Shown here: positions 1 to 53,733 of the stretch, piece by piece
How the letters are laid out: each line of letters begins with the position of its first letter
How positions within the stretch are numbered: position 1 is the stretch's first letter
Assembly (NCBI GenBank): GCA_964589625.1
Contig: CAZPSH010000008.1
Location: forward strand, 1 to 64,000
Source: an uncultured Thermoanaerobaculia bacterium
Lineage (GTDB): Bacteria > Acidobacteriota > UBA4820 > DSQY01
Direction of reading: 5' to 3'
DNA: 64,000 bases
Made by a program: the position numbers and the translations under genes
The notes under the pieces: generated by a model
The model's database searches: none
The model's input: the letters and a program-made list of their open reading frames with translations, nothing else
What the model was told of the DNA's origin: nothing

Positions 1-113
1 GGTCCTCATCGAAGGCATCCCGCAAAGGACGTGGTTGGAGGGGGATTCGAAGGGCCGCCCTTTTAACCGATTTGAATCGCGGGGGGGTCCCCGAAGAGGC
101 GCTTAAGACACGG

Positions 114-139
114 GGAGGCCCCTCCGAAGAGGGGCCTCC
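114..139 (-). terminator. Perfect palindromic hairpin GGAGGCCCCTC-CGAA-GAGGGGCCTCC, 32 nt downstream of the peroxiredoxin stop
   Basis: 11-bp perfect inverted repeat with a 4-nt loop read directly from the sequence. It sits just 3' of the minus-strand prx ORF. There is no clear U-tract. Confidence 0.45.
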
Positions 140-170
140 AGGGTGGTCCCGCCTTGGTGGGGATGCGGTC

Positions 171-773
171 CTATTCGTCGGGTTTCCAGACCTTCCACAC
201 GTTGCCGGCGAGGTCGGGGCTCACCTTGAGGGTGGGCTTCCCGGGCTCCCATCCGGCGGGGCACACCTCCGCCCCCTTGGTCTGGCGCACGTGCTGGAAG
301 GCCTGGAGCTGGCGGATGGACTCAGTGACCTTTCGCCCCACGGGTGGGGTGAGGATCTCGATGGCCTGGACGACCCCGTCGGGATCGATGATGAAGCGAC
401 CGCGGACATCCACGCCACCGGCCTCGTCGTAAATCCCGTACACCGATCCGATCTTCCCGCCCGCATCTGACAGCATGGGGAAGGGGAATCCTCCTTTGAC
501 CATCTTGGAGAGTTCCTGCTCCTGCCAAATCTTGTGGACGAACCGGCTGTCCGTGCTGCAGGACAGGACCTGGACTCCCAGCTTCCTGAATTCCCCGGCC
601 TTGTCGGCGACCGCCGACAATTCGGTGGGTCAGACGAAGGTGAAATCGCCCGGGTAGAAGCAGAGAAGGACCCACTTCCCCCGGAAGTCCGACAGCTTGA
701 TGTTCTTGAAGCCCCCCTTGTGGAAGGCCGACGCCTCGAAGTCCGGGGCCTCTTTCCCAACCATCACCGCCAT
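171..773 (-). CDS. 2-Cys peroxiredoxin (AhpC/Prx1 type) with an in-frame TGA (630-632) at the peroxidatic Cys position; predicted selenocysteine peroxiredoxin
   Basis: ORFs 630..881 and 171..620 are in the same frame, separated only by TGA. The joined protein reads ...[24 protein letters not shown]... and matches the FYPLDFTFVCPTE motif. The resolving Cys is present near the C-terminus (VCPAGW). RBS AAGGAGGG lies 5 nt before the ATG at 773. Confidence 0.8.
601..620 (-). ncRNA. SECIS-like mRNA hairpin (8-bp stem UUGUCGGC/GCCGACAA, loop GGUC) starting 10 nt 3' of the in-frame UGA
   Basis: The stem-loop was read directly from the sequence. Its spacing and the G-containing apical loop fit the bacterial SECIS architecture. 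Confidence 0.6.
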
Positions 774-997
774 TCTGCCCTCCTTTCCCGCGGGGCCCGG
801 TGGCCCCACCGCTCCCGCTTCCGGCTTCGGGACCAGAGGCCCCGCAGCCACGGACACGCACCCCTTCAACTTTTCCGTCATGGCACCTCCTATGAGCGTT
901 GAACCTCAACCGTCGAGATCTCCCAGCCCAAGCCTCGTGGCTCCCTGCTTTGGTCTTTCCCCTTCCAACGCACGAATGCCCTCGGAGCCGACCCTCC

Positions 998-2377
998 CTA
1001 GAGGCAGCGCATGAAGGCTACGAGGTCCTTCTTCTCCTGGGGTGTAAGGTGCAGCTGTTGGACGATGTTGAAGTACTCGACGGTGTCCTCCAGGGTGAAG
1101 CAGCGCCCGTCGTGCAGGTAGGGCGGCGAGTCCTTGATTCCTCGGAGAGGGAAGGTCTTGATGGGACCGTCGTGGGCCATCATCATGCCGTTCACCATCT
1201 CTTGTCTGTAGAAGCGCTCCGCCATCAGGTTGTGCATCGAGTTGTCGGTATAGTAAGGAGCGGGATGGCAGCGGGCGCACTGCGCCTTGCCGCTGAAGAG
1301 CCTCTCGCCCCTCAGCTCGGAAGGCGTGGCCTTGGCCGGGTCCAGTTCGCCGTAAATGTTGAGCTTGGGTGCCGGGGGGAAGTCGAGGATCTCCAGAAAC
1401 TCGGCCATGAAGTGCACCTGGCTGCCTCGCTCCAAAATGTTGACTCCTTTCTTCGTGGCCATGCAGATGTCGCCGTCGAAGTAAGCGGCACGCTGTTCAA
1501 ACTCGGTGAAGTCCTCCACCGTCTTGAGTGCGCGCTGGGACCCGAATAGGGCCTGGATGTTGACTCCCCGAAGGGTCGGCGTCTCGATGCGGTGGCGGTA
1601 CTCCTGAGGCCGGATGTCGCCCACCAGATGCGTGGCGCCGTTCGTGTGGCCGTTGGCGTGGCAGTCGAAGCACGTGACCCCCAGCATCCCGTCCGCGCGG
1701 TCCGTTCGCCGGTCCTCCGTCGCGTTGAACTGCTGTTGCGGGAACTGGGTGACCAGCAGGCGAAGTCCTTCAAGCTGTTTTGGGTTCAAGATGCCGTTGA
1801 AGATTTCGTAATAGTTGTTGATGGTGATGAGCCGCCCCTTGGCCACGTCGCCCAAGTCCGGCCTCGTCGTGAGGTAGATTGCCGGCACTGGATCGGGCAA
1901 GACCGCTTCGGGCAGGTCGAAATCCACGTCGAAGCGAGTAAGCCGGGGAAGCAGCTTGAGCATCATGTCGGGGAAGAGCATCCCCCCTTCGGCGTGGTCC
2001 GGGAAGGGAAGCGGCTTGTAGGGAAACAGCCCCTTCTGCCGGATCTGCTCCGGCGTCATCTGGTCGAGCTGGTCCCAGGTCGTTCCGCGGAGGTTCGCGG
2101 TGGGCCCGACGGGCACCGGCTTCCCGCCGGACATCTTCAGGTTCGGGTCGACCTTGACATCGAGGATGTACCTCGAGGCGAGCAAATCGGCGTGTTCCTT
2201 TGCGCGCTCGGGCTTGACCGCCAGGCGGGAGGCCTTGATTTGCTCGAAGGTCGTAATCTGGTCGGTCGGTCCGTAACTCGATACGACTGGCCCCGTTTGG
2301 GCGAACAGCCCGACGACTCCCACGGCCAGGGCCGCGAGGCCGAGCCACGCGGCCTTTGCAAAGATCTTCAACGACAT
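998..2377 (-). CDS. ccp: Di-heme cytochrome c peroxidase family protein with signal peptide
   Basis: Two CxxCH heme motifs (CFDCH, CARCH), an N-terminal signal-like segment and overall CCP/MauG-like sequence. RBS AGGAGGA upstream of the ATG. Confidence 0.8.
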   Translation of the reverse strand: MSLKIFAKAAWLGLAALAVGVVGLFAQTGPVVSSYGPTDQITTFEQIKASRLAVKPERAKEHADLLASRYILDVKVDPNLKMSGGKPVPVGPTANLRGTTWDQLDQMTPEQIRQKGLFPYKPLPFPDHAEGGMLFPDMMLKLLPRLTRFDVDFDLPEAVLPDPVPAIYLTTRPDLGDVAKGRLITINNYYEIFNGILNPKQLEGLRLLVTQFPQQQFNATEDRRTDRADGMLGVTCFDCHANGHTNGATHLVGDIRPQEYRHRIETPTLRGVNIQALFGSQRALKTVEDFTEFEQRAAYFDGDICMATKKGVNILERGSQVHFMAEFLEILDFPPAPKLNIYGELDPAKATPSELRGERLFSGKAQCARCHPAPYYTDNSMHNLMAERFYRQEMVNGMMMAHDGPIKTFPLRGIKDSPPYLHDGRCFTLEDTVEYFNIVQQLHLTPQEKKDLVAFMRCL

Positions 2378-47985: not shown

Positions 47986-48753
47986 ATGGGCGCTCTGGTG
48001 GGGCGCAGGGTCCTCGTCACGCGCCCCGCGGGCCAGGGGGACCGCCTGGCCGAGGCCATTCAATCCGCCGGCGGCCACGTCCTGAGGATTCCCGTCCTCG
48101 AGATCGCGCCCGTCGCGCCCGATGAGGCCGCGCGGGAGGCGCTGGCCTCCCTCTCCTCCTACGACTGGTGCGCCTTCACGAGCGAGAACGCCGTCCGCCA
48201 CTTCCTGGACTGGGTGGACGCCGCGGGGGTCCGCTGGCCCCTCCGCCTCCGCGCGGCCGCCGTGGGGCCCGCCACGGCCCGCGCCCTGAGGGCCCGCGGA
48301 CGGGAGGCGGACCTCGTGCCGGACCCGCACACGGGGCGCGCCCTGGGGGAGCGCCTCGCCTCCAAGGTTTCCCCCGGACGCCTCCTCGTGCCAGGCGGCG
48401 ACCAGGCCCGGGAGGAGCTGGACGAAATCCTGCGGAGCGCCGGGTGGGAGGTGACGCGCCTGGTCTGCTACGAGAACCGCGTCCTGGCGCTGAACCACTC
48501 GCAGGTCTACGCCCTGGAGCAGGGCCTCGACGCCGCCCTCTTCGCCTCGCCCTCGGCCGTGCGGGCCCTGTGGAACCAGGTCCCCGAATCGGCCCGCAAC
48601 GTCCTGCGCGCGGCCGCCTGCCTTCCCATCGGCCCCACCACAGCCGCCGCCCTGCGGGAGGCGGGCCTGACGCCCGCCGCCGTCCCCGAGGCCCACACCA
48701 CCGAAGGCGTCCTCGCCGCCCTCGAAGGCGTGCTCGCCAACCGCCCTCGGTAG
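47986..48753 (+). CDS. hemD: Uroporphyrinogen-III synthase
   Basis: RVLVTRPAGQ...HemD fold pattern. Follows hemC after 1 nt. Confidence 0.85.
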   Translation: MGALVGRRVLVTRPAGQGDRLAEAIQSAGGHVLRIPVLEIAPVAPDEAAREALASLSSYDWCAFTSENAVRHFLDWVDAAGVRWPLRLRAAAVGPATARALRARGREADLVPDPHTGRALGERLASKVSPGRLLVPGGDQAREELDEILRSAGWEVTRLVCYENRVLALNHSQVYALEQGLDAALFASPSAVRALWNQVPESARNVLRAAACLPIGPTTAAALREAGLTPAAVPEAHTTEGVLAALEGVLANRPR

Positions 48754-48835
48754 GCGATTCGCGGGCAGGCGCGCCCGGCCCGTGCGCCGATCTGCCCCAA
48801 GGGTTCCGCTGCTTCGTCTCACGTCCTTTCTTCTT

Positions 48836-48860
48836 CCGTCTAACGTTTCCCGTCTAACGT
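48836..48860. repeat. Tandem direct repeat CCGTCTAACGT x2 (14-nt period)
   Basis: tcttCCGTCTAACGTttcCCGTCTAACGTctcc read directly, in the lower-GC spacer after hemD. Confidence 0.6.
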
Positions 48861-48956
48861 CTCCCATCTCGCTTCTTTTGGGAGCCGTCGCCCGACGCCG
48901 ATCTTCTCTCTCCAAAGGCCTCCCTTCTTCGTAGGGGAGGGCCTCCGCGTCCTCCC

Positions 48957-49150
48957 GCCTTCGAAGGCCCCCACCGTAGCGGCCCTTGCTTGCAAGGGCC
49001 GGCCCCTCGGCCGATGCGAGCATCCGCCGCCGCCACCACCTTGACTCCCTTTTCCTTGTAGGCGTACGCTCAACCTACCTTGAGGAGGCTGAGCCACAGT
49101 GGGCAAAAGCCAAGAGGGGGGGAAATGTGGCAATACAAGACCTGACCCCC
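48957..49150. repeat. Left arm of a ~170-190 bp imperfect inverted repeat flanking the R-M cassette
   Basis: Aligns at ~80% identity to the reverse complement of 50960-51151. It includes the identical 24-mer CTTGCAAGGGCCGGCCCCTCGGCC and the TTGACTCCCTTTTC...GTACGCTCAACCT block. Confidence 0.75.
49041..49070 (+). promoter_or_regulatory. Promoter-like TTGACT-N18-TACGCT inside the left inverted repeat, pointing into the cassette (antisense to the methyltransferase gene)
   Basis: Read directly from the sequence. Conserved in both repeat copies. Confidence 0.4.
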
Positions 49151-49190
49151 ATTGCCTCTCTACTTGACCGCTAGCCCTCTACGCTTGCCT

Positions 49191-50120
49191 TTACGCGTGC
49201 GCCTTTCGACGGATTCTGTATATGGGAGCTTCTTCGTGGAGCTCGGGAGCGCCGTTCTTTTCGCTTACTCGTTCGAAGCGGATGCGCTTCTGCGAGAAGA
49301 GGCTGCAGCCCTCGGTGTGGAATCGCCTGAGGGCCATCCGGCAATACTCCTCGTCGATGTCGATTCCGATGCTGTTTCGGTTGGCCTTCTCGGCGGCGAG
49401 CATCGTGGTGCCTGTGCCCACGAAGGGGTCGAGTACCGTGTCCCCCCAGAATGAGAACATCCGCACGAGGCGATAGGCCAGCTCGAGAGGGAAGGGCGCG
49501 GGGTGGTGCTTTGTCGAAGCCCCGGTGAGCGTCCAGAACTGCTGGAACCACTCCCCGTACTCCTTCTTGCCGATCATGCTGAGGCGGCGCTGCTCTTCGG
49601 TGGGCTTCCGATAGCCGCCGGGCTTGCGCTGCATCAGGATAAACTCGATGTCGTTCTTTATGATCGCGTTGGGTTCGTAAGGCTTGCCGAGAAACTTCGA
49701 GCCGTTTTCCACTTCGTAGTTTGCGTTTGCGATCTTATGCCAAATGATGGGATTGAGATTGTCGAAGCCGATCTTGCGGCAGTTTACGGCGATGTCCGCG
49801 TGCAAGGGGACGACGACGTGGCGCCCGAAGACCTTCCGCGAAAGGCACACGTCCCCCACGTCGCAGACGAGACGGCCGCCGGGGACCAGGATTCGATACA
49901 CCTCCCGCCAAACCTTGTTGAGCTCCTCCAGAAAAATCTCGTATTCCTGGACGTGCCCGAGCTGTCCCTCTACGTCGTTATAGCGCTTGAGCGTCCAGTA
50001 GGGCGGCGAGGTCACGACGAGGTGGATCGACTCATCCCGAAGATACGGCATGGACCGGGCGTCTCCGAGAATGAGACGGTGCGAAGTAGCAGGCTCGGGG
50101 ACGGTGCGAGCATCGGTCAT
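49191..50120 (-). CDS. Beta-class N4-cytosine/N6-adenine DNA methyltransferase (motif IV TSPPY preceding motif I DPFVGTGTT)
   Basis: LVVTSPPYW ... VLDPFVGTGTT motif order is typical of beta-group amino-MTases. The ATG at 50118-50120 overlaps the endonuclease TGA. Confidence 0.85.
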   Translation of the reverse strand: MTDARTVPEPATSHRLILGDARSMPYLRDESIHLVVTSPPYWTLKRYNDVEGQLGHVQEYEIFLEELNKVWREVYRILVPGGRLVCDVGDVCLSRKVFGRHVVVPLHADIAVNCRKIGFDNLNPIIWHKIANANYEVENGSKFLGKPYEPNAIIKNDIEFILMQRKPGGYRKPTEEQRRLSMIGKKEYGEWFQQFWTLTGASTKHHPAPFPLELAYRLVRMFSFWGDTVLDPFVGTGTTMLAAEKANRNSIGIDIDEEYCRMALRRFHTEGCSLFSQKRIRFERVSEKNGAPELHEEAPIYRIRRKAHA

Positions 50121-50863
50121 CAGGTAGCTCGTCCGAAGGCGCTCACGTGCGCGAACAGAGAGCGGGCGAATAAATTGAAAGTCAGCTCCTGCGCGGGCTC
50201 TTGGTAGGCGCCCCTGGCGCCCGTGTCCTTGGCCGAGAGCAGGAAGCACGAGGAGCTGTAGTGTCTCTCTCTCAGAAGCTTCCTGCAGAAGAGCTCGTAC
50301 CGCTTGGCGTAGGAGGCGTTTTTGAATTCGGGAAAGACATCGAAGTGGGGCTCTTTCACCCGGACCGGGCTGCGGGACTTTGCGCAGTCCTCCAGCAGGA
50401 ACAGATAGCCGAGCCAAGGCTTCACGGTGGTATTGAAGGCGCCTTCACGGTAGGCGGTCCAGAGGTCCAAGGCGCTGCCCATGGCCTCCTCGGTGCGGTT
50501 ATTGAAATTGTTGCCGAAAGAAGGCCCGACCTGGGACTTGGCTTCGAGCGCCAGCACGAGCTGGCCGTTTTGGACTACGAGGAGGTCCCACTCTTTGGTG
50601 GGCCTGAAGAACCCTGGCAGCTCGAGGGTCGTCCTGTAGAAGACGTGCTCGGACTCAACCCCCGCTCGTTGGATGATGTCCGCAAGTAGGCGGATAAAGC
50701 CGTCCATCTGGGCGCCGCCCGTGACGGCGGCCCTCGCCCCCTGGTCCTGCCGGCCGGCGGTCTGTTGCCGCTGAGCTTGGCCCGAGCGAGTAGTCCAGTA
50801 GTCTTTCACGGCGGCCGCAACGCGTTGATCAAGGCTTGCGAGGATCTCGTCTAGAGATGCCAT
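50120..50863 (-). CDS. Putative type II restriction endonuclease (PD-(D/E)XK fold)
   Basis: EWDLLVVQNGQLVLALEAKSQ contains a D...E-x-K arrangement. Immediately upstream of, and coupled to, the MTase. Low GC3. Confidence 0.6.
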   Translation of the reverse strand: MASLDEILASLDQRVAAAVKDYWTTRSGQAQRQQTAGRQDQGARAAVTGGAQMDGFIRLLADIIQRAGVESEHVFYRTTLELPGFFRPTKEWDLLVVQNGQLVLALEAKSQVGPSFGNNFNNRTEEAMGSALDLWTAYREGAFNTTVKPWLGYLFLLEDCAKSRSPVRVKEPHFDVFPEFKNASYAKRYELFCRKLLRERHYSSSCFLLSAKDTGARGAYQEPAQELTFNLFARSLFAHVSAFGRAT

Positions 50864-50959
50864 GCGCACGTCCCCCCTTTGCTCACCGTAAGCGTATCAC
50901 TCTCTCAGCTGGCCTTGTCCAGAAGCTCGCGCACCTTCTTTTCGTTGGTGAGGGCCTTG

Positions 50960-51151
50960 ATGATCCGTTTGCGGATCCGGCAGATGCGGCAAATGAGATC
51001 ACGTCTTGCATGTCCACATTTCCTCCCAACAGCCTTCGCTCGCTGTGGTTCAGGTTCCTGAAGACAGGTTGAGCGTACTCCCTGAAAGAAAAGGGAGTCA
51101 ATGTAGCGGTGGCGGCCGAGGGGCCGGCCCTTGCAAGCCGAGAGGGCCACT
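50960..51151. repeat. Right arm of the inverted repeat flanking the R-M cassette
   Basis: Reverse complement aligns to 48957-49150. Confidence 0.75.
51063..51092 (-). promoter_or_regulatory. Promoter-like TTGACT-N18-TACGCT in the right inverted repeat, reading leftward toward the endonuclease/methyltransferase genes
   Basis: Minus-strand -35 at 51092..51087 and -10 at 51068..51063. It is the only obvious promoter upstream of the R-M operon. Confidence 0.5.
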
Positions 51152-51228
51152 TTTCGAAGAGAGCGGCCACGGAAGGCCGCCCTCACGGCAGGAATGGCGC
51201 TACAATGGAAGCCCTGCGGGAGACCGGA

Positions 51229-53733
51229 ATGGCTCAGACCCTGTACCTCGTGGACGCCTCGTCGATCCTCTTCCGGGCCTTCTACGCCATCCGGAGCCTC
51301 TCCACGCGGGACGGCCGCCCCACGAACGCCATCTACGGCACCCTCAAGATCGCGGAGAAACTCCTGAAGGACCACCGCCCCGAGCGCGTGGCCTTCGTTT
51401 TCGACACGCCCGCGCCCACCTTCCGCCACGAGGCCTTCGAGGCCTACAAGGCCAACCGCCCCGAGATGCCCGACGACATGGCGAGGCAGATCGGGCCGGC
51501 CAAGGAGATCCTCCGGGCCATGGGCCTTCCCCTCCTCGAAACGCCGGGGTACGAGGCCGACGACCTTATCGGCACGCTGGCCTTGCGCGCCGTGGAGGCG
51601 GGGATGGAGGCGGTCATCGTCACCGCCGACAAGGACCTCTTCCAGCTGGTGCGGCCGGGGGTGCGCGTCCTGCACACGAAAAAGGAGGACGCCCTCCTCG
51701 ACGAGAAGGGGGTGGAGGAGGTCTTCGGCGTGCCGCCCGGGCGCGTGGTGGACGTGCTGGCCCTCTGGGGCGATCCCACGGACAATATCCCCGGCGTTCC
51801 GGGGATCGGCGAGAAGGGCGCCAAGGACCTCGTGCGCCAATTCGGTGACCTGGAGTCGGTCCTGGGCCACGCCGCCGAGGTGACCCGCAAGGCCTACCGG
51901 GAGGGCCTTTTGCAGTTCGCGGATCAGGCCCGCCTCTCCCGGGACCTCGCCACCATCCGCACCGACGCGCCCGTGGAGGTCCCCCTGGAGGACCTGCGCC
52001 TGGCCGCCCCCGACCGGGAGCGCCTCCAGACCCTCTTCCGGGAGTACGAATTTTCCTCCCTCGTTGTCCCCGAGCCGGGCCAGGCCCCCACCCCCGCCGA
52101 GGAGGCCCCCCCGGCGCGGCCGCTGGACGGGGCCGCGTGGGAGGCCCTCTCCCGTGCGGACGCCGCCGGGATGGCCTGGGCCGAGGAGGGGGTCTTCCTC
52201 TCCGACGGCTCCGATGTCTGGGTCGCCTCTCCCCAGGCCCCGGACGGGGCCCGCCTTGCCACACTGCCGCTGTGCGTCCACGGGTTGAAGAGCCTCCTGA
52301 GGCGGCTCGGGCCCTCCGAATTCCGCCCCGGCCCGCGGGCCCTGGACGCGGCCGTGGTGGGGTATCTCCTGGACCCTTCGGCCCGGGTGCCTTCGGTGGC
52401 GGACCTTGGGGAGCGCTTCCTGTCCCTCCGGGCGGAGGGCGACGCCCCCGCCCTCCAGGCCCTCCTCCTGTCCCGCCTGGCGCCGGCCCTTCGGGCCGAA
52501 CTGGACCGCCTGGCCATGGGGCGCCTCTACGAGGAGGTCGAGGGGCCCCTCATCCCCGTCCTGGCGCGCATGGAGGCCGCCGGCGTGGCGGTGGACGCGG
52601 GCTACTTCCGGTCCTTGGGCGAGGAGATGGGCGGAGCCCTGCGCGATCTGGAGGGGCGGATCCACGCGGCGGCGGGCCTGCCGTTCAACGTGGCGAGCCC
52701 CCGCCAGGTGGGGGAGGTCCTCTTCGAAAAGCTGAACCTGCCCGTCCAGAAGCGCACCACCAAGACCAAGAGCTACTCCACCGACAGCGAGGTCCTGGAG
52801 GCCCTCCGGGAGGCCCACCCCGTGGTGGGCCTGATCCTGGAGCACCGGATGCTGGCCAAACTCAAGGGCACCTACGTGGACACGCTTCCCCAGCAGGTGG
52901 ACCCGTCCACGGGCCGCATCCACGCGGCCTTCCACCAGACCGTCGCGGCCACGGGGCGCCTCTCGTCCTCGGACCCCAACCTGCAGAACATCCCCGCGCG
53001 GGGCGAGTGGGGGCCGCGCATCCGCCGGGGCTTCCTCGCCGCCGAGGGGCATCTCCTGGCGGGGGCCGACTACAGCCAGATCGAGCTGCGCATGCTCGCC
53101 CACCTCTCGGGGGACGAGGCGCTGGCGCGGATCTTCTCGGAGGGCCGGGACATCCACACGGCCACGGCCTCGGAGGTCTTCGGCGTGGCCCCTCCCTTCG
53201 TCACGCCCGACATGCGCCGCCAGGCCAAGGCCGTGAACTTCGGCATCCTCTACGGCATGGGGCCCTTCGGCCTGGCCCGGGAGCTGGGGGTTCCGCAGAA
53301 GGAGGCCAAGGCCTTCATCGAGAGGTACTTCGCCCGATTCCCGCGGGTGAGGGCTTACGTGGACGGGGTGGTGGAATCGGTCCTCTCGGCCGAGGAGGTG
53401 ACGACGATCCTCGGGCGCCGGCGGCTCTTCCCCGGCATCGCCCGCGCCGCCAAGCCCCTCCAACAGGCGCTGGTCCGCCAGGCCGTGAACACCACCGTCC
53501 AGGGAAGCGCCGCGGACCTCATCAAGAAGGCCATGGTGGACGTGGAGCCCCGCCTGCCCAAGGGTGCGCGCCTGGTGCTCCAGGTCCACGACGAGCTTAT
53601 CGTGGAGGCGCCCGAAGCCATGGCGGAAGAGGTGGCGAGGATCCTGCGGGACTCCATGGAGTCGGCCATGAGGCTGAGGGTCCCCCTCGTGGCTGGGACG
53701 AGCGTGGGAAGGCGCTGGAGCGATCTCAAGTAG
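51229..53733 (+). CDS. polA: DNA polymerase I
   Basis: 5'-3' exonuclease N-terminus (LYLVDASSILFRAFYA), polymerase motifs A/B/C (DYSQIELR, RRQAKAVNFGILYG, VHDEL). RBS GGGAGA. Confidence 0.95.
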   Translation: MAQTLYLVDASSILFRAFYAIRSLSTRDGRPTNAIYGTLKIAEKLLKDHRPERVAFVFDTPAPTFRHEAFEAYKANRPEMPDDMARQIGPAKEILRAMGLPLLETPGYEADDLIGTLALRAVEAGMEAVIVTADKDLFQLVRPGVRVLHTKKEDALLDEKGVEEVFGVPPGRVVDVLALWGDPTDNIPGVPGIGEKGAKDLVRQFGDLESVLGHAAEVTRKAYREGLLQFADQARLSRDLATIRTDAPVEVPLEDLRLAAPDRERLQTLFREYEFSSLVVPEPGQAPTPAEEAPPARPLDGAAWEALSRADAAGMAWAEEGVFLSDGSDVWVASPQAPDGARLATLPLCVHGLKSLLRRLGPSEFRPGPRALDAAVVGYLLDPSARVPSVADLGERFLSLRAEGDAPALQALLLSRLAPALRAELDRLAMGRLYEEVEGPLIPVLARMEAAGVAVDAGYFRSLGEEMGGALRDLEGRIHAAAGLPFNVASPRQVGEVLFEKLNLPVQKRTTKTKSYSTDSEVLEALREAHPVVGLILEHRMLAKLKGTYVDTLPQQVDPSTGRIHAAFHQTVAATGRLSSSDPNLQNIPARGEWGPRIRRGFLAAEGHLLAGADYSQIELRMLAHLSGDEALARIFSEGRDIHTATASEVFGVAPPFVTPDMRRQAKAVNFGILYGMGPFGLARELGVPQKEAKAFIERYFARFPRVRAYVDGVVESVLSAEEVTTILGRRRLFPGIARAAKPLQQALVRQAVNTTVQGSAADLIKKAMVDVEPRLPKGARLVLQVHDELIVEAPEAMAEEVARILRDSMESAMRLRVPLVAGTSVGRRWSDLK

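What the first reader, a model, noticed from the sequence alone, without database searches (positions are those of the whole stretch)
48957..51151. Horizontally acquired restriction-modification cassette flanked by ~170-190 bp imperfect inverted repeats between hemD and polA
The GC content drops to ~57% with relaxed GC3. The block contains a PD-(D/E)XK endonuclease and a beta-class amino-methyltransferase whose stop and start overlap (ATGA at 50118-50122). It is bracketed by inverted repeats of ~80% identity that share an identical 24-mer (CTTGCAAGGGCCGGCCCCTCGGCC). A palindromic TTCGAA motif lies 7 nt outside the left core and 1 nt outside the right core. No transposase or integrase is present. 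It therefore looks like a self-contained, possibly MITE-like mobilisable R-M module or a defence islet inserted into a housekeeping intergenic region.
Basis: partly seen in the sequence, partly recalled or inferred. Interest (0 to 1): 0.75.

Follow-up and report, generated by a model that had tools for sequence, protein, structure and literature searches.

The report
Restriction-modification genes in a repeat-flanked slot
An ordinary, horizontally acquired XhoI/PaeR7I-type restriction-modification gene pair sits between hemD and polA of an Acidobacteriota genome, in a strain-variable slot bracketed by two inverted copies of the host lineage's own mosaic repeat rather than by transposon ends of its own.

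Summary
Window 48753-51193 is a 2.4-kb insert that is absent from relatives, which have hemD and polA 38-159 nt apart. It holds a low-GC R-M operon: an XhoI/PaeR7I-family endonuclease and a beta-class N6/N4 methyltransferase. The operon is flanked by a true inverted repeat, and that repeat is longer than reported (about 220-250 nt, 48930-49180 vs 50970-51192).

The repeat does not belong to the cassette. Each arm is a mosaic of lineage-specific intergenic repeats. The exact 24/26-mer is half of a GTAG-headed REP hairpin. The inner end of each arm is a 29-nt terminal inverted repeat of the TIRYT/"TIRtron" family of HUH tyrosine transposases, and its GGGG tip points toward the cargo. TTCGAA lies inside the repeat, so it is not a target duplication.

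- Close homologues of the cassette sit in four other contexts without the arms.
- A sister species has the same arms at the same locus with unrelated cargo.
- Another locus in that species' metagenome has left-type and right-type arms around a single YCII gene.
- The right arm abuts a truncated controller (C) gene.

Best reading: this is a foreign R-M captured in a repeat-bounded cargo slot. A trans-mobilised, cargo-carrying repeat element remains possible. Interest is moderate.

The parts
48753..51193 (.). Whole insert relative to the empty hemD-polA spacer of relatives.
   Evidence: L196 aligns to the window up to 48752 and from 51194, with 38 nt in between. L198 aligns up to 48730 and from 51201, with a 159-nt spacer.
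48832..48869 (+). 14-nt tandem repeat (TCTCCCGTCTAACG x2.7), a dispersed lineage module.
   Evidence: TRF result. Related arrays (CCCGTCTTTCGTCT, about 8 copies) occur in L030.
48880..48904 (+). Repeat module 'A', GGGAGCCGTCGCCCGACGCCGATCT.
   Evidence: Single copy in the window. Related copies occur in L008, L030 and L184, and next to the L002 R-M.
48930..49180 (+). Left arm of the inverted repeat: a mosaic made of a GTAGGGG hairpin module, TTCGAAGG, a GTAG-REP hairpin, a linker and a TIRYT-type TIR.
   Evidence: nhmmer E 5e-76. It is 73% identical to the right arm and 80% identical to a paralogous arm in L184.
48976..49036 (+). GTAG-headed REP-like hairpin, containing the exact 26-mer at 48988-49013.
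   Evidence: DNA folding: window -18.3 kcal/mol (z -2.4). Intact copies: L008 -26.5 (z -5.2), L030 z -3.9, L184 z -3.3.
49041..49070 (+). Promoter-like TTGACT-N18-TACGCT pointing inward, antisense to M.
   Evidence: The hexamers and spacing are conserved in the window left arm, the window right arm and the L184 arm, while the spacer varies. Not flagged by the consensus scan. This is inference only.
49121..49149 (+). 29-nt TIRYT/TIRtron-type terminal inverted repeat, GGAAATGTGGCAATACAAGACCTGACCCC, with its GGGG/CCCC tip facing the cargo.
   Evidence: One mismatch to the family consensus. The motif was found in 61 metagenome loci, about 55 of them genuine. It flanks Y1_Tnp+HTH genes.
49191..50120 (-). 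Beta-class N6/N4 DNA methyltransferase (309 aa).
   Evidence: PF01555 E 6e-45. PADLOC MTase_II. PDB 2zie E 1e-112.
50120..50863 (-). XhoI/PaeR7I-family type II restriction endonuclease (247 aa).
   Evidence: PF04555 E 6e-92, covering profile positions 2-190 of 191. PADLOC REase_II E 9e-96. Homologues are named PaeR7I family.
50905..50970 (-). Remnant of a controller (C, HTH_3) gene: the last 21 codons plus the stop codon.
   Evidence: 20 of 21 residues identical to the C-terminus of the 136-aa HTH protein upstream of R in L007.
50970..51192 (-). Right arm of the inverted repeat, with the same module order as the left arm and a 16-nt deletion in the REP hairpin.
   Evidence: nhmmer E 2.5e-61. 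Alignments.
50995..51023 (-). Degenerate TIRYT-type TIR (GGAAATGTGGACATGCAAGACGTGATCTC) with its tip facing the cargo.
   Evidence: Five mismatches to the consensus.
51072..51101 (-). Promoter-like TTGACT-N18-TACGCT pointing toward the C remnant, R and M.
   Evidence: Read directly from the sequence. Conservation as for the left arm. This is inference only.
51113..51138 (-). Second copy of the exact 26-mer (half of the GTAG-REP hairpin). Homology to the L008 backbone resumes exactly here.
51201..51206 (+). TACAAT, a -10-like box upstream of polA, conserved in relatives with and without the insert.
   Evidence: Seen in the sequences.

Best explanation
What is there: a horizontally acquired type II restriction-modification operon. 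R is an XhoI/PaeR7I-family PD-(D/E)XK nuclease that probably recognises CTCGAG. M is a beta-class amino-methyltransferase. The two genes share one base between stop and start, so they are probably translationally coupled.

Where it sits: in a strain-variable cargo slot in the hemD-polA spacer of an Acidobacteriota lineage. Two inverted copies of a lineage-specific mosaic repeat of about 220-250 nt bound the slot. From the outside in, each arm consists of GTAG-headed REP-like hairpins, a linker, and a 29-nt TIR of the TIRYT (TIR-associated HUH tyrosine transposase) family whose GGGG tip faces the cargo. The arms are host-lineage repeats, not ends that travel with the R-M genes.

Shown here:
- The insert is derived; relatives have an empty site.
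- The arms are dispersed repeats.
- Cargo differs between sister species at the same arms.
- Cargo genes occur elsewhere without arms.
- The controller gene was truncated exactly at the inner end of the right arm.

Inferred:
- Gene-sized foreign cassettes enter the slot by illegitimate joining at or next to the TIR tips. The truncated C gene suggests this.
- Cassettes are afterwards exchanged between strains by homologous recombination across the arms.
- The operon is probably now transcribed from a promoter-like TTGACT-N18-TACGCT in the right arm. The left arm's copy would give antisense transcription into M.
For: - Empty site: L196/L197 and L198.
- Foreign composition. CTCGAG is not avoided in host DNA (47 observed, 52 expected), which fits recent arrival.
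- R-M identity.
- The arms are not cassette-specific. Cassette homology in L002/L006/L007/L199 stops at 49180/49195 and at 50566-50971, with no arms or TIR motif.
- Same locus, other cargo. L008/L009 share window sequence up to 49030 and from 51113 at about 92%, but carry a 385-aa gene and a 116-aa gene. That 385-aa gene is 94% nt-identical to a copy in the unrelated context L200, which has no arms.
- Dispersed repeat family. L030 carries the REP hairpin twice at another locus. L184 has a full arm 80-83% identical to the window's left arm.
- Several independent assemblies break inside the arms: L010, L011, L012 and L001.
- REP hairpin folding.
- TIR identity. The tip GGGGTCAG fits the GGGGWSAS consensus of TIRtron TIRs (PMC3733652; PMC6006769, subclass 2.1). 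The motif flanks Y1_Tnp+HTH genes in L136, L143/L175, L165, L173, L186, L169, L154 and L189.
- C-gene truncation at the arm boundary.
- Recurrent architecture. In L184, nested inverted repeats (outer CGTAGGGG module plus inner TIR, tips inward) enclose a low-GC YCII gene. Its arms show the same left-type and right-type distinction as in the window.
Against: - Only three arm-flanked loci are available, and two of them are orthologous.
- No arm-arm 'empty slot' was seen.
- No TIRYT or RAYT gene is present in the 64-kb window.
- L008's left arm lacks the linker and the TIR.
- The mechanism of entry is entirely inferred.
- The window is from a MAG. The joins between the outer arms and the inner arms fall in a repeat, and the independent contig L001 covers only 49057-51099. 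A mis-join at the REP hairpins is therefore unlikely but not formally excluded.
- The promoter assignment rests on a weak -10 (TACGCT) and was not called by the scan.
Confidence: 0.6

Rival explanations
1. The whole structure (arm, cargo, inverted arm) is a non-autonomous mobile element. It would be a composite or REPIN-like unit whose arms are recognised in trans by a RAYT/TIRYT HUH transposase encoded elsewhere in the genome. It would move as a unit, and its cargo is replaceable.
For: - The same two-armed architecture, with distinct left-type and right-type outer modules and inward TIRs, occurs at a second, non-orthologous locus (L184) around different cargo. This suggests the arm pair was duplicated as a unit.
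- The arms contain sequences of two repeat classes linked to HUH tyrosine transposases: a GTAG REP and a TIRYT TIR.
- Y1 HUH elements make no target duplication, so the missing TSD is not decisive.
- R-M units flanked by inverted repeats and lacking a transposase have been described (PMC2853133).
Against: - The TIR tips point inward, the opposite of their orientation around TIRYT genes and in TIR dimers.
- No identical unit is seen at two loci.
- The outer arms are conserved at backbone-level identity (about 92%) in the sister species while the cargo differs.
- The cargo genes travel without arms elsewhere.
- Arm modules occur separately in other combinations (L030 has modules A-C-D without module B, the linker or the TIR), so the outer boundary is not constant.
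- The cassette junction cuts a gene.
Confidence: 0.2
2. Coincidence of neighbours. The R-M cassette entered the spacer by illegitimate recombination. Dispersed intergenic repeats (REP/TIR mosaics), which accumulate in non-essential and foreign DNA, were inserted or duplicated on both sides independently. On this view the inverted symmetry has no role in acquiring or moving the cargo.
For: - TIR and REP copies lie in ordinary intergenic regions next to ordinary genes in many metagenome loci.
- The spacer is a patchwork of several repeat modules that differ even between strains 96.6% identical: L016 diverges from the window directly after hemD.
- Mobile repeats commonly pile up beside islands.
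Against: - Both arms have the same module order over about 220 nt and abut the cargo symmetrically.
- The same nested symmetry recurs at L184.
- In L143 and L136, tips-facing TIR pairs also enclose low-GC DNA.
- Across solo TIR copies, the DNA beyond the tip is lower in GC than the DNA on the interior side in 20 of 26 cases. By my own count from the table, that is 17 of 22 after removing duplicates, sign test p about 0.02.
Confidence: 0.15
3. Assembly artefact. The cassette with its inner arms was mis-joined into the hemD-polA locus at the shared REP hairpins during metagenome assembly.
For: - The boundaries between backbone-conserved and window-specific sequence (49030 and 51113) fall in or next to the repeated 26-mer.
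- Several assemblies break there.
- The independent contig L001 stops inside the arms.
Against: - Two independent assemblies of the sister species (L008 from JGI, L009 from NCBI) bridge the same arms with cargo in between.
- It would take two symmetrical mis-joins at a repeat of only 26 exact bases.
- The arm sequence between L001's ends and the 26-mer is continuous and arm-like on both sides.
Confidence: 0.04

Closest known systems
Type II R-M systems of the XhoI/PaeR7I endonuclease family (Pfam PF04555)
   Same: - Full-length match of R to the family profile, with a D...EAK catalytic motif.
- R and M are adjacent and co-oriented.
- Homologues are annotated 'PaeR7I family type II restriction endonuclease'.
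   Different: - R is only 47-50% identical to plasmid-borne PaeR7I-family enzymes.
- Those enzymes are paired with Eco57I-domain (gamma-type) methylases. Here the partner is a 309-aa beta-class N6/N4 MTase close to PDB 2zie.
- The controller gene found in close relatives (L007, L199) is truncated here.
- The specificity and the methylated base were not tested.
Transposon-like R-M units flanked by inverted repeats (Furuta, Abe & Kobayashi 2010, PMC2853133)
   Same: R-M genes with no transposase, bracketed by imperfect inverted repeats, with an empty site in a related genome.
   Different: In those cases the repeats were 26-65 bp, were unique to the inserted unit, were absent from the empty-site genome, and were flanked by 8-bp target duplications. 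Here:
- the repeats are about 220-250 nt;
- they belong to a dispersed host repeat family;
- they persist at the locus with other cargo;
- no target duplication is present.
GTAG-tagged REPs / REPINs / BIME-like mosaics (RAYT-associated repeats; PMC3733652, PMC3116915)
   Same: - The outer part of each arm is a GTAG-headed imperfect palindrome of about 60 nt. It is extragenic and multi-copy in the lineage, and it is combined with other short modules in variable order.
   Different: - REPINs are roughly 70-110-nt doublets with short spacers and no genes. Here the inverted copies are 2.1 kb apart with a gene cassette between them.
- No RAYT gene was seen in the available sequence.
TIRtrons / TIRYT terminal inverted repeats (Di Nocera et al. 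2013, PMC3733652; TnpA-Y1 subclass 2.1, Quentin et al. 2018, PMC6006769)
   Same: - The 29-nt motif starts with GGGGTCAG, which fits the GGGGWSAS consensus.
- In metagenome loci it flanks Y1_Tnp+HTH genes in inverted orientation and also occurs as dimers and solo copies.
- Acidobacteria are a known host group.
   Different: - In TIRtrons and TIR dimers the GGGG tips point outward. Here they point inward toward the cargo.
- The TIR is fused to REP hairpins in a larger arm.
- No cargo-flanking role has been described for these TIRs in the papers read here (PMC3733652, PMC6006769).
MITE-pair composite units (e.g. integron mobilisation units flanked by two MITEs) and defence-gene hotspots between conserved core genes
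   Same: Accessory or defence cargo with no recombinase of its own lies between two copies of a short non-coding repeat. The cargo varies between strains at a fixed core-gene junction. This comparison is from my own knowledge, not a tool result.
   Different: - Mobility of this unit has not been shown.
- The arms here are mosaics of HUH-transposase-associated repeats rather than derivatives of DDE-transposon ends.

Membership tests
Type II R-M system, XhoI/PaeR7I REase family | REase matches PF04555 above the curated cut-off over the full profile. | tested here: met
   307 bits against a cut-off of 25, covering profile positions 2-190 of 191. PADLOC REase_II E 9e-96.
Type II R-M system, XhoI/PaeR7I REase family | PD-(D/E)XK catalytic motif present. 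| tested here: met
   ...KEWDLLVV...LVLALEAKSQ... is read directly in the translation. No solved structure is available for confirmation.
Type II R-M system, XhoI/PaeR7I REase family | Cognate MTase adjacent, with intact SAM-binding and catalytic motifs. | tested here: met
   PF01555 at 154 bits. Motif IV (TSPPY) precedes motif I (DPFVGTGTT), which is the beta-class order. The genes overlap by 1 nt (TGATG).
Type II R-M system, XhoI/PaeR7I REase family | Cleavage and methylation at CTCGAG. | not testable with these tools
   Inferred from family membership only. CTCGAG is not depleted in host DNA (47 observed, 52 expected).
C-protein-controlled R-M operon | Intact HTH controller gene upstream of R. 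| tested here: not met
   Only the last 21 codons remain (50905-50970). The full 136-aa gene is present in L007 and L199.
   Cassette relatives lack the repeats. The same arms at the orthologous locus hold different cargo.
   No direct repeat is present at 48929/51193 or at 48753/51193. TTCGAA is internal to the repeat. This is not decisive for HUH Y1 elements, which make no duplication.
   One further two-armed locus (L184) has different cargo and a shortened right arm. Whole genomes were not available.
GTAG-tagged REP / REPIN | GTAG head followed by an imperfect palindrome that folds as a hairpin. | tested here: met
   GTAGCGGCC..TGCTTGCA..GGCCGG-CCCC-TCGGCC..TGCGAGCA..GGCCGCTAC. Folding z-scores range from -2.4 to -5.2.
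GTAG-tagged REP / REPIN | Many extragenic copies per genome. | tested here: inconclusive
   Copies occur at three loci of the lineage and assemblies break at them. Only two copies lie in this 64-kb window. No complete genome was available.
GTAG-tagged REP / REPIN | Associated RAYT gene in the genome. | not testable with these tools
   No Y1 transposase lies in the window or in lineage loci. The rest of the genome was not available.
TIRtron TIR (TIRYT-associated) | TIR with a GGGGWSAS tip. | tested here: met
   The left arm has GGGGTCAG on the minus strand (49149-49142). The right arm is degenerate, GAGATCAC.
TIRtron TIR (TIRYT-associated) | The same TIR flanks a Y1_Tnp(+HTH) gene in inverted orientation. 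| tested here: met
   Seen in metagenome loci L136, L143/L175, L165, L173 and L186 (upstream of the gene) and L154/L169 (overlapping its 3' end). Pfam Y1_Tnp E 2e-9 to 2e-13. NCBIfam REP_Tyr_transpos scores 71.6 bits, below its cut-off of 80. Not seen in the window itself.
TIRtron TIR (TIRYT-associated) | Tips outward, enclosing the transposase or a short spacer. | tested here: not met
   In the window and in L184 the tips face inward toward the cargo.

The most novel reading that the evidence does not exclude
The arms could define an undescribed class of cargo slots or cargo-carrying elements built from repeats associated with HUH tyrosine transposases. On this reading, TIRYT-type TIR tips, here fused to GTAG-REP hairpins, mark the exact junctions at which gene-sized foreign cassettes are captured and swapped. 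The cassettes seen so far are an R-M pair, a gene with a weak partial match to the PD-T7-5 defence family, and a YCII gene. The arms may also supply an inward promoter. This would be functionally analogous to an integron platform but based on Y1 HUH chemistry. It may not be limited to this lineage: tips-facing TIR pairs enclose low-GC DNA in L143 and L136, and GC drops beyond the tip in 20 of 26 solo copies.
Probability: 0.15. Interest if true: 0.8.

Novelty: new variant of a known kind. Interest (0 to 1): 0.45.

Why it matters
The R-M system itself adds little. It is one more member of a large family.

What could matter is the setting. A fixed core-gene junction has been converted into a strain-variable cargo slot, and the slot is bounded by inverted mosaics of REP and TIRYT repeats. 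These two repeat classes are linked to domesticated or semi-domesticated HUH transposases, and their biological role is still debated. If the arms take part in capturing or exchanging cassettes, this would be a concrete, testable function for such repeats. It would also suggest a route by which small defence modules that lack a recombinase move in high-GC environmental bacteria. If the arms take no part, the locus is simply an ordinary defence islet sitting among repeats.

Tried and rejected
- Rfam scans found no RNA family, either in the region (E-value mode) or in the whole window (gathering thresholds). No tRNA is present, so tRNA-targeted integration is rejected.
- The consensus promoter/terminator scan found nothing useful.
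- The genome-contig scan used a degenerate REP pattern that was too loose. Nearly all of its 118+ hits were chance matches in GC-rich genomes. Only L030 was informative.
- Three viral-contig scans (linker, REP, TIR motif) returned nothing. The arms are therefore not phage-borne in IMG/VR.
- Exact look-up of the 249-aa GTG-start version of R failed. The annotated protein starts at the ATG and is 247 aa (P0001).
- Six of the 61 TIR-pattern hits are a coding-sequence coincidence (GGAAATGTGAACATTCAAGACATGATGAAG, inside a conserved gene). They were excluded.
- ORFs next to TIR copies in high-GC loci were mostly spurious, so I dropped a planned family-enrichment test.
- I considered Xer/dif-like modules and integron attC sites for the 29-nt motif. 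I rejected both because the motif has no dyad symmetry or attC-like structure and because it is associated with Y1 transposase genes.
- I considered the 6-codon mini-ORF (MWQYKT / MWTCKT) as a leader peptide. It is more simply explained as the conserved 3' end of TIRYT genes that overlaps the TIR (L169 ends ...EAEMWRCKT*).


Full report
**Observation.** Between hemD (47986-48753, PF02602) and polA (51229-53733) the GC content drops from 0.70-0.78 to 0.57-0.63. Third-position GC is 0.79-0.80 in the two enclosed genes, against 0.92-0.96 in five neighbouring housekeeping genes.

The enclosed genes are on the minus strand.
- R (50120-50863, 247 aa from the ATG) is a full-length member of the XhoI/PaeR7I family. 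It matches PF04555 at E 6e-92 and PADLOC REase_II at E 9e-96. Homologues are named "PaeR7I family". A D...EAK motif is visible in the translation.
- M (49191-50120, 309 aa) matches PF01555. Its motif IV (TSPPY) precedes motif I (FVGTGTT), which is the beta-class order. It matches PDB 2zie at E 1e-112.
- The R stop and the M start share one base (TGATG, A at 50120).

The inverted repeat is genuine. blastn gives E 4.6e-21, and the exact shared stretch is a 26-mer that occurs twice against 0 expected. The repeat is also longer than reported: 48930-49180 pairs with 50970-51192. Identity is 73% overall, and the right arm carries a 16-nt deletion. The two TTCGAA copies fall in aligned columns of this extended repeat and recur in a paralogous copy, so they are not a target-site feature.

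**The block is an insertion.** HemD homologues at 84% (L196, L197) and 69% (L198) identity come from genomes with the same gene order: hemA-hemC-hemD-polA-thyX. Their DNA aligns to the window up to 48752 (L198: 48730) and resumes at 51194 (L198: 51201). Only 38 nt (L196) or 159 nt (L198) lie in between, and no arm was found by nhmmer. A TACAAT box about 25 nt upstream of the polA start is conserved in all of them. Window 48753-51193 is therefore derived.

**The cassette travels without the arms.** The closest R-M relatives are L002/L003 (R 81% aa), L006, L007 and L199, at 80-85% nt identity. They match only window 49180/49195 to 50566-50971. They sit in four different contexts, and none has inverted repeats or the 29-nt motif.

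L007 and L199 carry a 136-aa HTH_3 controller gene upstream of R. The window keeps only its last 21 codons (50905-50970, 20 of 21 identical). The break coincides with the inner end of the right arm. On the other side, homology ends at the M stop codon. The junctions therefore look like abrupt, illegitimate joins rather than designed element ends.

**The arms belong to the host lineage.** The source is an Acidobacteriota MAG, going by source names and record titles.
- Sister-species contigs L008 (JGI) and L009 (NCBI) have about 92% backbone identity. They share window sequence up to 49030 and from 51113, which is the outer part of both arms including the 26-mer. Between those points they hold a different 2.25-kb cargo (GC 0.56): a 385-aa ORF with a weak PD-T7-5 match and a 116-aa membrane-like ORF.
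- That 385-aa gene is 94% nt-identical to a copy in an unrelated, arm-less context (L200).
- L008 also has its own inverted repeat (47 nt, 83%). It carries a right inner arm that is interrupted by about 165 nt.
- A 96.6%-identical strain (L016) diverges from the window directly after hemD. The locus is therefore variable even between near-identical strains.
- Independent assemblies end inside the arms: L010, L011 and L012 at window-equivalent 48985-49005, and L001 at 49057 and 51099. This is expected for a multi-copy repeat.

**Anatomy of an arm.**
1. The 26-mer is the 5' half plus the apex of a GTAG-headed imperfect palindrome of about 60 nt. This hairpin folds well in intact copies: L008 -26.5 kcal/mol (z -5.2), L030 z -3.9, L184 z -3.3, window left arm z -2.4. 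It occurs twice at an unrelated locus of the 96.6% relative (L030, between SRAP-like and DUF480-like genes). There it sits with two other modules that also lie left of the window's arm: a 14-nt tandem repeat and GGGAG-CGTCGCC-GACGCCGATCT. It fits the GTAG-tagged REP class (PMC3733652).
2. The inner end of each arm is a 29-nt motif, GGAAATGTGGCAATACAAGACCTGACCCC (49121-49149). A degenerate copy lies at 50995-51023 on the other strand.

A metagenome scan with a 20-specified-base version of the 29-nt motif returned 61 loci, of which about 55 are genuine.
- In those loci the motif occurs solo, or as tail-to-tail dimers (GGGGTCAGG...CACATTT, 1-45 nt, GGAAATGTG...CCTGACCCC).
- It also flanks genes that start MARPLR-E-G-YHV. 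These genes are Y1_Tnp (IS200-like) with a C-terminal HTH, and their best NCBIfam match is "REP-associated tyrosine transposase".
- This matches the published TIRtron/TIRYT elements. Their TIRs share a GGGGWSAS tip, and Acidobacteria form a defined group among them (PMC3733652; TnpA-Y1 subclass 2.1 in PMC6006769).

**Orientation and recurrence.**
- Around TIRYT genes and in dimers the GGGG tips point outward. In the window both tips point inward, at the cargo.
- The same nested arrangement is found at a non-orthologous locus from the sister species' metagenome (L184). There an outer CGTAGGGG module pair (23 nt, 83%) and an inner TIR pair (31 nt, 77%, tips inward) enclose a single low-GC (0.50) YCII gene.
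- The window's left arm is closer to the L184 left arm (80-83%) than to its own right arm (73%).
- The right-hand outer modules of the two loci share a distinct "right-type" sequence. This suggests the arm pair is inherited or copied as a pair.
- No target duplication flanks either structure.
- In two other lineages (L143/L175 and L136), tips-facing TIR pairs enclose about 1 kb of DNA that is 7-12 points lower in GC.
- Across solo TIR copies, the 600 nt beyond the tip are lower in GC than the 600 nt on the interior side in 20 of 26 cases. By my own count after removing duplicate loci this is 17 of 22, sign test p about 0.02.

**Interpretation.** The best-supported reading (confidence about 0.6) is that a foreign, gene-sized R-M cassette occupies a cargo slot bounded by inverted host-lineage mosaic repeats. 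The arms are not the cassette's own ends.

Entry by illegitimate joining at or beside the TIR tips is inferred, as is later strain-to-strain exchange by recombination across the arms. The grounds for these inferences are the truncated C gene, the arm-less cargo homologues, and the conserved outer arms around swapped interiors.

CTCGAG is not under-represented in the host DNA of the window (47 observed, 52 expected). This fits a recent arrival.

Both window arms and the L184 arm carry TTGACT-N18-TACGCT pointing at the cargo, with conserved hexamers and a variable spacer. In the window the right-arm copy could drive the C remnant, R and M. The left-arm copy could produce antisense RNA over M. 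This is a lead only: the consensus scan did not call it, and the L008 right arm lacks it.

**Rivals.**
- A trans-mobilised arm-cargo-arm element (0.2). For it: the recurrence at L184 and the left-type/right-type arm distinction. Against it: the inward tips, the variable outer boundaries, the backbone-level conservation of the outer arms, and cargo that moves alone.
- Pure coincidence of repeats piling up beside an islet (0.15).
- An assembly mis-join at the REP hairpins (about 0.04). Against it: two independent sister-species assemblies bridge the same arms.

**Comparison with the known.**
- The R-M pair is a new member of a known family. It differs from plasmid PaeR7I systems in its methylase partner (beta-class here, Eco57I-domain type there).
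- The transposon-like R-M units of Furuta et al. (PMC2853133) have short, unit-specific repeats and 8-bp duplications. Neither holds here.
- REPINs and TIRtrons supply the building blocks of the arms. The papers read here do not describe either as bracketing gene cargo with inward tips.

Overall this is an ordinary defence cassette in an unusual, possibly functional, repeat-bounded slot. I score it as moderately interesting and as a new variant of known kinds.

Noticed in passing
window 49121-49149; metagenome loci L135-L195: The 29-nt TIRYT-type TIR is conserved almost base for base across many unrelated metagenome lineages, with contig GC from 0.45 to 0.73. About 55 genuine loci were found with a pattern that specifies 20 bases. 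The tip is often followed by 2-4 tandem copies of GACCCC plus 6-8 nt (L153, L181, L184, L186, L147, L135). A weaker version lies at window 49141-49180.
   Followed up: partly
L135-L195; L143 6036-7029; L136 4682-5769: DNA just beyond the GGGG tip of solo TIR copies tends to be lower in GC than DNA on the interior side: 20 of 26 copies, mean difference -0.043. Tips-facing TIR pairs enclose low-GC segments of about 1 kb in two other lineages.
   Followed up: partly
window 49127-49147 and 51017-50997(-); L169 (3' end of the TIRYT gene): A 6-codon ORF preceded by a Shine-Dalgarno-like GGAGG/GGGGG lies inside the TIR (MWQYKT*, MWTCKT*). In L154/L169 the TIRYT reading frame ends ...EAEMWRCKT* inside the TIR. 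The mini-ORF is therefore probably the conserved 3' end of the transposase gene that overlaps its TIR.
   Followed up: partly
window 48832-48869 and 48880-48904; L030 about 950-1075 and 1420-1500; L002 6345-6365: Two further lineage-wide intergenic modules were seen. One is a 14-nt tandem repeat (TCTCCCGTCTAACG / TCTCCCGTCTTTCG, up to about 8 copies in L030). The other is GGGAG-CGTCGCC-GACGCCGATCT. A copy of the second also lies just downstream of the R-M cassette of L002.
   Followed up: partly
L008 7553-8710 and 8811-9161; L200-L203: The alternative cargo at the same slot in the sister species is a 385-aa protein with no Pfam family. It has a weak PADLOC PD-T7-5 match (E 1e-5) and a sporadic distribution (Variovorax, Acinetobacter, Ramlibacter and others). 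A 116-aa membrane-like protein accompanies it. In L201 the 385-aa gene sits next to an IS91-type Y2 transposase.
   Followed up: partly
L006 2855-3217; L199 725-1467: Close relatives of the cassette show decay of R with M intact. R is truncated to 120 aa in L006 and split by a frameshift in L199. These look like steps toward orphan methyltransferases.
   Followed up: no
L002/L003 (JGI 3300037851 / 3300037310) versus L196 (JGI 3300037851): The 81%-identical R-M relative lies at a different locus, between AI-2E transporter and NTP-transferase genes, in a GC 0.71-0.73 genome. It comes from the same sample as the empty-site relative L196 and carries the lineage's module-A repeat. It may therefore come from the same or a related Acidobacteriota organism.
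   Followed up: no
window 1-2000: GC is 0.627 in the first 2 kb, against about 0.68 for the window average. Not examined.
   Followed up: no
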